A stretch of DNA of 64,000 nucleotides from Escherichia coli 042 (lineage in GTDB: Bacteria > Pseudomonadota > Gammaproteobacteria > Enterobacterales > Enterobacteriaceae): NCBI RefSeq assembly GCF_000027125.1, contig NC_017626.1; one strand, given 5' to 3'. Positions 5,255-5,636 of this stretch are shown here, in pieces; within the stretch, counting starts at the first letter, position 1, and each line of letters starts with the position of its first letter. The position numbers and the translations under genes were made by a program. The notes below the pieces were generated by a model, which was given only the letters and a program-made list of their open reading frames with translations, was not told where the DNA came from and did not search any database.

Positions 5255-5548
5255 TCAAGTATAAAAGCCAATACCTACTATTAAGATTATTACACTCAAA
5301 ATACAACCCGTTGTCTTGAGTAATAAAGTTCGCAGGTCTTTCAGCCTTTGTGGATGAGAGTGGACATGAACTTTGGGATCAATACTATAATTCCTCTCGG
5401 CAAGTTTTCGTTTATACTCTTCATGTTCAAGTTCGAAGGCCATTGAATTTTCGGCAGCGATAGTTACAAATCTCTCTGCGCTGAATATTAAATACCACAT
5501 GGTCTTATAAAGATTCTGCTTTTGAGGGAGCGGTCTTTCTGTATTCAT
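5255..5548 (-). CDS. Hypothetical small protein with C-terminal hydrophobic segment; 3' end truncated by IS911
   Basis: 97-aa ORF 88 nt downstream of res; its stop codon lies inside the IS911 terminal repeat, so the native C-terminus is lost. Confidence 0.35.
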   Translation of the reverse strand: MNTERPLPQKQNLYKTMWYLIFSAERFVTIAAENSMAFELEHEEYKRKLAERNYSIDPKVHVHSHPQRLKDLRTLLLKTTGCILSVIILIVGIGFYT

Positions 5549-5636
5549 TTTTTACTCATTGTTTATGCTAAACCATCCCGAAACAGCAACGCAATGTCTC
5601 GGAATGGTTTTTAATTACAACTCCGGTGGGCTGCTA

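What the first reader, a model, noticed from the sequence alone, without database searches (positions are those of the whole stretch)
5255..5612. Last gene of the operon region is cut by IS911; a strong palindrome precedes it
The 97-aa ORF (5255-5548) ends with a hydrophobic segment and a stop codon supplied by the IS911 terminal repeat, so its native 3' end and any further downstream operon genes were removed by the insertion; the present system may therefore be incomplete. Between res and this ORF lies a 13-bp-arm palindrome (5571-5605, CCATCCCGAAACA...TGTCTCGGAATGG) followed by T5 on the plus strand, oriented to stop antisense transcription entering from the IS side.
Basis: seen in the sequence. 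Interest (0 to 1): 0.3.

Follow-up and report, generated by a model that had tools for sequence, protein, structure and literature searches.

The report
IS911-truncated membrane gene after restriction operon
The 97-codon ORF is the front 58% of a 168-codon membrane-protein gene that ends a mobile phage-defence cassette. An IS911 element cut it off, which is an ordinary insertion-sequence pseudogene, and the hairpin in front of it is a conserved stem-loop between two genes.

Summary
ORF 5255-5548 (-) is real, ends in a hydrophobic helix, and its TGA stop is the outermost 3 nt of an IS911 inverted repeat.

- **Truncation.** Full-length homologues in Salmonella, Pectobacterium, Cronobacter, Pantoea and other E. 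coli are 168 aa with three hydrophobic helices. The window copy lacks the C-terminal 71 aa, which hold the family's most conserved residues.
- **No lost downstream genes.** In every intact relative this small gene is the last gene of a six-gene cassette: SNF2 'ietH', ietA, ietS, type III mod, res, small gene. A convergent integrase or unrelated genes follow it.
- **Hairpin.** It is real but sits 2 nt off the stated coordinates. The 13-nt arms are 5573-5585 and 5595-5607 and extend to 5570-5610. Eight orthologous loci keep the structure, with six compensatory pairs.
- **T5 run.** The plus-strand T5 run occurs only in the window's own lineage (all three window-lineage genomes read), so an antisense-terminator role is not supported. 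I read the hairpin as an RNA stem-loop between res and the small gene (a leaky terminator or 3'-end stabiliser).
- **Protein family.** It matches no Pfam or PADLOC model above threshold. Relatives sit behind type I restriction operons, next to a Shedu-type gene and in an integron-like array. Weak hits to SLATT_1 recur but all fall below cut-off.

Low interest: a routine IS pseudogene in an O104:H4-like island at tRNA-Phe.

The parts
5255..5548 (-). Truncated small membrane-protein gene: codons 1-97 of a 168-codon gene, plus a TGA stop. It keeps the N-terminal helical domain and the first transmembrane helix only.
   Evidence: ORF list. Alignment with 168-aa homologues. dN/dS of 0.09-0.40 against orthologues. 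Annotated WP_001091149.1, hypothetical protein.
5255..5257 (-). The TGA stop codon, which is the outermost 3 nt of the IS911 left inverted repeat.
   Evidence: Sequence. The same tip, TGAAGTGG, is seen in E24377A.
4923..5257 (-). IS911 left end (left inverted repeat and the 5' part of orfA), itself interrupted by IS30. The IS30 transposase ORF is 3764-4915 on the plus strand.
   Evidence: ORFs. blastn to the E24377A IS911 left end, window 4923-5261. RefSeq annotations IS3 family / IS30.
1412..1728 (-). IS911 right end. The tip of the right inverted repeat (TGAAGTGGTCAACAAAAACTGGCCACC) is at 1412. Its left flank is not the rest of the small gene.
   Evidence: Sequence, blastn and tblastn, which finds no C-terminal part.
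5549..5636 (-). 88-nt spacer between res and the small gene. The hairpin starts 26 nt after the res stop codon and ends 21 nt before the ATG of the small gene.
   Evidence: Orthologous spacers are 80-88 nt.
5570..5610 (.). Conserved stem-loop: 16-nt arms at 5570-5585 and 5595-5610 with a 9-nt loop. The 13-nt core arms are 5573-5585 and 5595-5607.
   Evidence: No Rfam family matches.
5608..5612 (+). T5 run after the stem on the plus strand. The first three T pair with AAA at 5570-5572 in the extended stem. The run is specific to the window's lineage.
5637..8507 (-). Type III restriction enzyme res subunit (956 aa), intact.
   Evidence: PADLOC REase_III, E = 0. Annotated DEAD/DEAH box helicase.
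8510..10137 (-). Type III mod methyltransferase, split into two ORFs by a 1-bp deletion at 9416 (GG to G) relative to E24377A and O104:H4.
   Evidence: The intact allele matches PADLOC MTase_III at E = 9e-292.
10147..13524 (-). ietS (S8 peptidase, 10147-12534) and ietA (AAA ATPase, 12544-13524).
   Evidence: PADLOC IetS at E = 0 and IetA at E = 4e-105. Coordinates transferred from RefSeq annotation.
13550..16398 (-). SNF2 / DrmD-like helicase ('ietH'), split by a 1-bp deletion at 16172 (T5 to T4) relative to O104:H4.

Best explanation
ORF 5255-5548 is a pseudogene remnant. It is the first 97 codons of a 168-codon gene for a small inner-membrane protein. That protein has an N-terminal helical domain of about 78 residues, probably cytoplasmic, followed by three transmembrane helices.

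The gene is the conserved last gene of a mobile six-gene defence cassette: SNF2 'ietH', ietA, ietS, type III mod, type III res, small gene. In the lineage of this window (E. coli O104:H4, 55989, E24377A, on an island at tRNA-Phe), an IS911-associated rearrangement cut the gene exactly at the end of the first transmembrane helix. The IS tip supplies the stop codon.

The lost 71 residues carry helices 2 and 3 and all the near-invariant residues of the wider family, so I infer the remnant is non-functional. Nothing else of the cassette lay beyond it. The hairpin between res and the small gene predates the IS and is conserved as a structure. I infer that it acts in the sense transcript as a leaky terminator or a barrier protecting the mRNA 3' end, so that the membrane protein is made at a lower level than res.

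Shown: the truncation, the gene order, the conservation of the hairpin and purifying selection on the gene. Inferred: loss of function, the role of the hairpin and any defence role of the protein.
For: - **Truncation.** 168-aa homologues at 67-82% identity align from residue 1, and the window copy ends at residue 97.
- **Same junction everywhere sampled.** All 65 E. coli genomes carrying this allele match from the first base after the IS. Every copy of this allele shown in a spread listing of hits to the full Salmonella gene stops at nt 295.
- **Rest of the gene absent.** tblastn finds no C-terminal part in the window.
- **Gene order.** SNF2, AAA, S8, mod, res, small gene in Salmonella, Pectobacterium, Cronobacter and two E. 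coli genomes, with a mod/res/small-gene tail in Pantoea and Kosakonia. A convergent integrase or unrelated genes follow where genes were called.
- **Cassette identities.** PADLOC matches REase_III, MTase_III, IetS, IetA and DrmD-like.
- **Real coding gene.** dN/dS is 0.09-0.42 in the full-gene comparisons.
- **Three hydrophobic helices.** Kyte-Doolittle profile and an AlphaFold model at pLDDT 75.8 with helices 64-97, 108-128 and 140-165.
- **Conserved core lost.** The near-invariant residues G116, W122, L128, G137, E142, F149 and G156 all lie in the deleted part.
- **Hairpin.** 15 pairs, 92% of cells paired, 6 compensatory pairs, 0 of 500 shuffles reach the observed covariation score, and slid controls collapse.
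- **ietHAS works alone.** It protects as a three-gene system, so the small gene is not required for it (PMC13069673). Type III restriction systems and ietAS are reported to co-localise in E. coli (bioRxiv 10.1101/2022.08.21.504612).
Against: - **Not a simple insertion.** The flanks of the IS are TACT and AGTA, which are reverse complements rather than a 3-bp direct repeat. The other flank is a type I restriction-endonuclease gene fragment next to McrBC. The exact event (deletion, inversion or recombination between IS copies) is not reconstructed.
- **Hairpin strand unresolved.** The sense fold is more stable only in the window. In Salmonella and Pectobacterium the antisense fold is about 1 kcal/mol more stable, and in Cronobacter and E. 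coli PigCaeca_2 it is 3-4 kcal/mol more stable.
- **No canonical U-tract.** The sense strand has only UUU after the stem in 6 of 8 loci and none in the Pectobacterium type.
- **No expression data.**
- **Function unknown.** The family matches no model above threshold, so calling the remnant non-functional rests on conservation alone.
Confidence: 0.8

Rival explanations
1. The IS911 insertion removed not only the 3' end of this gene but further downstream operon genes, so the restriction system lacks components. The hairpin with T5 is a terminator oriented to stop antisense transcription coming from the IS side.
For: The truncation itself is real. In the window, the plus strand has a T5 run directly after the stem. 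The IS30 transposase gene nested in IS911 points toward the ORF, so antisense read-through is conceivable.
Against: No conserved gene follows the small gene in any intact locus examined. The T5 run is absent from Salmonella, the Cronobacter-type loci and the Pectobacterium-type loci. The plus-strand stem in the window has two C.A mismatches and is 7 kcal/mol weaker than the minus-strand stem. The hairpin predates the IS, because it is present in loci that have no IS.
Confidence: 0.08
2. The 97-aa product is still made and useful. The N-terminal domain, anchored by a single transmembrane helix, keeps or gains a function, so the ORF is not a dead remnant.
For: The start codon, the purine-rich ribosome-binding region and the upstream operon are intact. 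The ORF is 99.7-100% identical in 65 complete E. coli genomes. Truncated forms of 99-121 aa also exist in Klebsiella, Serratia and metagenomes.
Against: The identity across 65 genomes reflects recent common descent, because the whole cassette is 99.9% identical. It is not evidence of selection. All near-invariant residues of the family lie in the lost part. Other inactivations look like decay: an in-frame stop at codon 78 in Kosakonia, and an adjacent IS481-family element in E. coli 600029.
Confidence: 0.08
3. The palindrome acts on DNA, or as part of a promoter for the small gene, rather than as an RNA structure. It could be an operator for a dimeric regulator, which would make the small gene an independently transcribed module.
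For: In the Cronobacter/E. coli-type hairpin the loop reads TATAAT, with ATGACG 18 nt upstream, a 10-of-12 promoter-like match. A conserved CATAA/TATAA motif lies between the stem and the ATG. Family members occur as stand-alone genes elsewhere.
Against: The arm sequences differ completely between lineages while pairing is preserved. That pattern fits a structural constraint rather than a sequence-specific operator. No promoter-like site was found on the minus strand of the window region. The TATAAT loop is absent from the window, Salmonella and Pectobacterium types.
Confidence: 0.12
4. The ORF is spurious, or it naturally ends at this position.
For: It matches no Pfam, NCBIfam or PADLOC family.
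Against: Homologues are conserved in at least 6 genera with dN/dS well below 1. There are 78 clusters of relatives at E of 1e-3 or better, mostly 155-175 aa. The ORF ends exactly at the tip of the IS.
Confidence: 0.01

Closest known systems
IS911 (IS3 family) insertional gene truncation
   Same: The terminal repeat TGAAGTGG... abuts the ORF, and its TGA tip closes the reading frame. RefSeq annotates the element as IS911.
   Different: There is no 3-bp direct target repeat, and the other IS end borders unrelated DNA. The event was therefore a rearrangement or deletion, not a simple insertion. The IS itself carries nested IS30 and IS110-family elements. It lies in the opposite orientation between the same flanks in E24377A.
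ietHAS (Liu-DS4; SNF2 helicase, IetA and IetS) co-located with type III restriction-modification
   Same: The upstream genes match PADLOC DrmD-like SNF2, IetA, IetS, MTase_III and REase_III. ietHAS has been shown to protect against phage T7, and type III restriction systems and ietAS are reported to co-localise in E. coli.
   Different: Neither paper, in the passages read here, describes a sixth gene or a small membrane protein. ietHAS works as three genes. In this window ietH and mod are frameshifted.
SLATT_1 (SMODS and SLOG-associating 2TM effector domain 1; PF18181 / NF033634)
   Same: It is the most frequent weak hit of the family: 17 of 88 members in NCBIfam and 8 of 88 in Pfam. Helices 1 and 2 always align to profile positions of about 16-83. 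Both are small membrane proteins found in defence contexts.
   Different: All scores (17.6 bits or less) are far below the cut-off of 41 bits. The family has three transmembrane helices and an N-terminal soluble domain. No SMODS or SLOG partner was seen. The hits may reflect membrane-helix composition only.
Intercistronic stem-loops and leaky intrinsic terminators within operons
   Same: A stable stem (-13 to -23 kcal/mol in the sense strand) sits between two co-oriented genes, 26 nt after a stop codon, and is flanked by an A-run and a T-run.
   Different: There is no U-rich tail of canonical length on the sense strand. The scan called no terminator here on either strand; the loop is 9 nt and the scan allows at most 8. 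Function was not measured.

Membership tests
IS911 / IS3-family insertion | Terminal inverted repeats beginning TGAAGTGG, and orfA/orfB transposase genes | tested here: met
   Left repeat tip at 5257 and right repeat tip at 1412. orfA and orfB fragments are present. RefSeq names it IS911 in E24377A.
IS911 / IS3-family insertion | A 3-bp direct duplication of the target on both sides, with contiguous target DNA, as expected of a simple insertion (expectation from my own knowledge of IS3-family elements) | tested here: not met
   The flanks are ...TACT|IS|AGTA..., which are reverse complements. The left flank is a type I restriction-endonuclease gene fragment next to McrBC, not the rest of the gene.
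Unnamed 168-aa three-helix membrane protein family (phrog_32029 covers only its first 97 positions) | Homology over the full length of about 165 aa, including the conserved W-x5-L...G-x4-E...F...G core in helices 2 and 3 | tested here: not met
   The window copy aligns only to residues 1-97. The core residues G116 to G156 are missing. It is a truncated member.
Unnamed 168-aa three-helix membrane protein family (phrog_32029 covers only its first 97 positions) | N-terminal domain motif (K/R-x-x-N...H/N-x-M-A-x-x-L-E) followed by a first transmembrane helix | tested here: met
   82% identity to the Salmonella protein over residues 1-97. phrog_32029 matches at E = 4e-53, positions 1-97 of 97.
SLATT_1 domain | A score at or above the curated cut-off of the Pfam or NCBIfam model | tested here: not met
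   The best member scores 17.6 bits against a cut-off of 41. P0003 itself has no hit.
SLATT_1 domain | Genomic association with SMODS or SLOG nucleotide-signalling genes (criterion from my own knowledge of the family definition) | tested here: not met
   None of 15 neighbourhoods examined contains one.
Rho-independent (intrinsic) terminator | A G+C-rich stem-loop followed directly by a U-rich tract (at least 5 U in 8), conserved in orthologues | tested here: not met
   The scan calls no terminator at 5570-5612 on either strand. The sense tail is UUUAGCAU. The plus-strand T5 run is seen only in the window's lineage.
Type III restriction-modification system | An adjacent mod methyltransferase and a res helicase-nuclease | tested here: met
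   REase_III at E = 0 and MTase_III at E = 9e-292 for the intact allele. In the window, mod carries a frameshift at 9416.
ietHAS | SNF2 helicase, IetA ATPase and IetS S8 protease in one operon | tested here: met
   PADLOC DrmD at 2e-201 (tested on the E. coli PigCaeca_2 orthologue), IetA at 4e-105 and IetS at E = 0. In the window, ietH carries a frameshift at 16172.

The most novel reading that the evidence does not exclude
The intact 168-aa protein may belong to an undescribed family of small membrane proteins, possibly distant relatives of the SLATT pore-forming effectors. These travel as a terminal add-on gene of restriction and other defence operons. They are found behind type III res here, behind type I hsdR in L015, next to a Shedu-type nuclease in L013, inside a defence island in L019, and as a cassette in an integron-like array in L016.

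Such a protein could add a membrane-level abortive-infection or exclusion layer to restriction. Its repeated independent inactivation would then indicate that it is costly to carry. The inactivations seen are IS911 here, an IS481-family element in E. coli 600029, and a nonsense codon in Kosakonia.
Probability: 0.15. Interest if true: 0.5.

Novelty: new member of a known kind. Interest (0 to 1): 0.18.

Why it matters
- **For this window it matters little.** It documents one more IS-mediated pseudogene in a decaying defence cassette on an island at tRNA-Phe in an O104:H4-like E. coli.
- **Annotation.** RefSeq's 97-aa 'hypothetical protein' WP_001091149.1 is a truncated product. The PHROG family phrog_32029 has 97 positions matching residues 1-97 only, so it appears to have been built from this truncated form. 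That is worth knowing for anyone using the profile.
- **A modest lead.** The intact gene defines an uncharacterised, mobile family of three-helix membrane proteins that recurs at the ends of restriction operons. That makes it a cheap candidate to test for phage defence or toxicity.

Tried and rejected
- **Missing 3' part elsewhere in the window.** tblastn with residues 98-168 of the Salmonella protein found nothing.
- **An intact copy of this allele in E. coli.** None was found among 5,426 complete genomes. Only divergent (79-81% DNA identity) full-length or near-full-length copies exist, for example in PigCaeca_2 and 600029.
- **Family assignment.** Pfam, NCBIfam and PADLOC gave nothing above threshold.
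- **Structure.**
  - The first AlphaFold model, from 11 sequences, was unusable (pLDDT 48.5).
  - The second, from 88 sequences, reached pLDDT 75.8.
  - The afdb50 library was not available.
  - A profile search of PDB sequences gave nothing below E = 1.
- **Known RNA families.** Rfam has no match at 5150-5750.
- **Repeated element (REP or MITE).** The 41-nt hairpin is unique in the window, and no second genomic copy appeared in the E. coli search.
- **attC-like integron site.** I considered this because one homologue is in a cassette array. I rejected it by eye: no GTTRRRY / RYYYAAC boundaries and no bulged bases.
- **Assigning the hairpin's strand.** Folding energies and G.U counts are inconclusive. 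By my tally from the pair tables, 105 of 114 cells pair in the sense strand and about 100 of 114 in the antisense strand. Folding energies disagree between loci.
- **Species-representative genome scan.** It returned only 2 loci, so a large covariation set could not be built.
- **Literature.** Searches for the protein accession and the PHROG id found nothing.

Full report
**1. What is in the sequence**

The minus strand of 5255-5548 holds an ATG-initiated ORF of 97 codons. Immediately to its left the plus strand reads ...ggccaaattcagtgtgccacttca|agtataaaagcc. The part before the bar is the reverse complement of the IS911 left terminal repeat TGAAGTGGCACACTGAATTTGGCC. RefSeq annotates that repeat as IS911 in E. 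coli E24377A.

The last 19-23 residues (LLLKTTGCILSVIILIVGIGFYT) are strongly hydrophobic.

The IS911 copy is itself broken by an IS30 element (transposase 3764-4915) and by an IS110-family element (1745-2821). Its other tip is at 1412.

**2. Is the gene truncated? Yes**

A search of 5.8 billion proteins gave full-length relatives of 167-168 aa at 67-82% identity. They come from Salmonella enterica, Pectobacterium, Cronobacter dublinensis and metagenomes. They align with the window ORF from residue 1. The window copy stops at ...GIGFYT, where the others continue with 71 more residues.

The full protein has three hydrophobic segments at about 80-100, 111-129 and 148-166. An AlphaFold model built on 88 sequences reaches pLDDT 75.8 and has long helices at 64-97, 108-128 and 140-165.

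The gene is real. dN/dS between orthologues is 0.09-0.42 in the full-gene comparisons. The missing 3' part is not elsewhere in the window.

All 65 complete E. coli genomes that carry this allele match from the first base after the IS. Every copy of this allele shown in a spread listing of hits to the full Salmonella gene stops at nt 295. This fits one ancestral event that was then inherited. The same IS30-in-IS911 junction is found in O104:H4 outbreak genomes.

**3. Were further operon genes lost? No evidence**

Five loci with called or annotated genes show the same order. They are Salmonella (L003), Pectobacterium (L004), Cronobacter (L005, L006) and E. coli PigCaeca_2 and 600029 (L008, L009). 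The order is SNF2 helicase (949 aa), AAA ATPase (326), S8 peptidase (795), mod, res (956), small gene. Pantoea and Kosakonia share the mod, res and small-gene tail.

What follows the small gene is not conserved:
- a convergent tyrosine integrase, next to tRNA-Leu in the two E. coli genomes (L004, L006, L008, L009);
- AraC-type genes in Salmonella (L003).

The small gene is therefore the cassette's last gene.

PADLOC models identify the cassette as a DrmD-like SNF2 helicase, IetA, IetS and a type III mod and res. The first three genes correspond to ietHAS (Liu-DS4). That system protects E. coli against phage T7 as a three-gene system (PMC13069673). Type III restriction systems and ietAS have been reported to co-localise non-randomly in E. 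coli (bioRxiv 10.1101/2022.08.21.504612).

**4. How the IS event looks**

It was not a simple insertion. The two flanks are ...cgcTACT|IS|AGTAtaaa..., which are reverse complements rather than a direct repeat. The left flank is a fragment of a type I restriction-endonuclease gene next to McrBC.

E24377A has the same two flanks but with IS911 in the opposite orientation. Some IS-mediated deletion or inversion therefore removed the gene's 3' end and whatever bordered the cassette. In relatives that border is an integrase.

**5. The hairpin**

The 13-nt arms are at 5573-5585 and 5595-5607, 2 nt to the right of the coordinates given. With the flanking AAA and TTT they extend to 5570-5610. The T5 run is at 5608-5612.

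| Measure in the window | Minus-strand (sense) RNA | Plus-strand RNA |
|---|---|---|
| The two arm mismatches | G.U pairs | C.A mismatches |
| Folding energy | -22.8 kcal/mol | -15.6 kcal/mol |
| z-score against shuffles | -3.85 | -3.61 |

The element is older than the IS. All eight orthologous spacers have a stem-loop at the same place, in three sequence types: window/Salmonella, Cronobacter/E. coli/Pantoea, and Pectobacterium/Kosakonia.

RNAalifold predicts 15 pairs, 6 of them with compensatory changes. On the named structure 92% of cells pair, no shuffle of 500 reaches the observed covariation score, and sliding the partners by 1-3 columns collapses pairing to 21-51%. Only three lineages are involved, so this is moderate evidence, not strong. 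Rfam has no match, and the sequence is not repeated in the window.

The strand and the role remain open:
- The plus-strand T5 run exists only in the window's lineage.
- The sense strand has UUU after the stem in 6 of 8 loci and none in the Pectobacterium type.
- Outside the window the antisense fold is as stable as the sense fold (Salmonella, Pectobacterium) or 3-4 kcal/mol more stable (Cronobacter, E. coli PigCaeca_2).
- The consensus scan calls no terminator there on either strand.

My preferred reading is a stem-loop in the res-small-gene transcript that terminates leakily or stabilises the upstream mRNA. It rests on position (26 nt after the res stop, 21 nt before the ATG, between co-oriented genes) and on structural rather than sequence conservation. 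It is an inference.

**6. What the small protein is**

Neither the window ORF nor the intact proteins tested (P0003, P0006, P0096, P0127) match any Pfam, NCBIfam or PADLOC model above threshold. A profile search of 1.84 billion cluster representatives found 78 clusters at E of 1e-3 or better. Most full-length ones are 155-175 aa and align end to end. Near-invariant residues (G116, W122, L128, G137, E142, F149, G156) all lie in helix 2, the following loop and helix 3. That is exactly the part deleted in the window.

Distant members occur in these settings:

| Locus | Setting |
|---|---|
| L015 | 20 nt after a type I hsdM-hsdS-hsdR operon, followed by a DUF6615 gene and an integrase |
| L013 | After a gene with the Shedu nuclease domain SduA_C |
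| L019 | In an island with HEPN, type I restriction, SIR2 and DUF87 genes |
| L016 | In an integron-like array of small cassettes in Methylobacter luteus |
| L017, L018 | Next to transposases |

This looks like a mobile accessory gene with a leaning toward defence islands, not a dedicated type III subunit.

The most frequent weak hit of the family is SLATT_1: 17 of 88 members in NCBIfam (best E = 0.0029) and 8 of 88 in Pfam. The hits are always in the same register. Every score is far below the cut-off, so this is a lead, not a membership.

**7. State of the rest of the system in this window**

Relative to O104:H4 2011C-3493 and E24377A, the window has two 1-bp deletions. One is at 9416 (GG to G) and splits mod. 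The other is at 16172 (T5 to T4) and splits the SNF2 gene. If they are real and not assembly errors, the cassette here is decaying in three places.

**8. Verdict**

The truncation is real, but no further genes were lost and the antisense-terminator idea is not borne out by conservation. This is an ordinary IS-generated pseudogene. The only mildly novel element is the uncharacterised membrane-protein family to which the intact gene belongs.

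Noticed in passing
window 9416 (mod, 8510-10137, minus strand): A 1-bp deletion (GTTGGCGTT to GTTGCGTT) relative to E24377A and O104:H4 2011C-3493 splits the type III methyltransferase into ORFs 9394-10137 and 8510-9418. It is not in a long repeat tract, so it is either a real inactivation or an assembly error, not classic phase variation.
   Followed up: partly
window 16172 (SNF2 'ietH', 13550-16398, minus strand): A 1-bp deletion in a T5 run (T5 to T4) relative to O104:H4 splits the SNF2 helicase. PMC13069673 reports that ietHAS with a mutated ietH is cytotoxic. 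A genuine frameshift here would therefore be notable, but it may be a homopolymer sequencing error.
   Followed up: partly
window 1408-1415 and 5254-5261; L001 5470-5490 and 8990-9004: The same two flanks (TACT and AGTA) border IS911 in both the window and E24377A, but the IS lies in opposite orientations. The flanks are reverse complements rather than a direct repeat. This suggests the element was flipped in place or recombined between IS copies.
   Followed up: partly
window 1412-5257: Nested mobile elements. IS911 is interrupted by IS30 (transposase 3764-4915) and by an IS110-family element (transposase 1745-2821). In E24377A and O104:H4 2011C-3493 the same IS911 carries a group II intron instead of the IS110-family element.
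   Followed up: partly
window 5282-5325; L002 4001-4044 (E. coli 042): A 44-bp stretch of the small gene (codons of about 75-89) is 100% identical to an unannotated stretch in 194 other complete E. coli genomes. In E. coli 042, the one genome examined, it lies directly beside an IS5 copy and upstream of a glycosyltransferase/ABC-transporter cluster near an integrase. It looks like the last remnant of an eroded copy of the cassette.
   Followed up: partly
phrog_32029 (PHROGs v4), compared with window 5255-5548: This PHROG profile has exactly 97 positions and matches residues 1-97 only. It appears to have been built from the IS-truncated E. coli ORF rather than from the native 168-aa protein.
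   Followed up: partly
L011 6001-6510 (Kosakonia sacchari); L009 11982-12467 (E. coli 600029): These are independent inactivations of the same small gene. The Kosakonia copy has an in-frame stop at codon 78. In E. coli 600029, homology ends at nt 460 of 507, next to an IS481-family element. Shorter database entries of 99-121 aa from Klebsiella and Serratia may be further cases.
   Followed up: partly
L016 7513-14748 (Methylobacter luteus): A distant family member sits in a one-directional array of small unrelated genes (GFA, WapI, AAA_33, ABM and others), directly after an oppositely oriented tyrosine recombinase. This looks like an integron cassette array.
   Followed up: no
L008 11914-11943 (E. 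coli PigCaeca_2 res/small-gene spacer): In the Cronobacter/E. coli-type hairpin the loop reads TATAAT, with ATGACG 18 nt upstream (10 of 12 promoter positions). This feature is absent from the window's hairpin type.
   Followed up: no
window 19382-20917: A tyrosine integrase (19382-20644, minus strand) and tRNA-Phe (20842-20917, minus strand) mark the island's attachment end. Window 1-1137 matches the DNA flanking pic in O104:H4, where the island carries the pic autotransporter gene. In other E. coli genomes the same cassette sits in an island at tRNA-Leu, in the opposite orientation relative to the integrase.
   Followed up: partly
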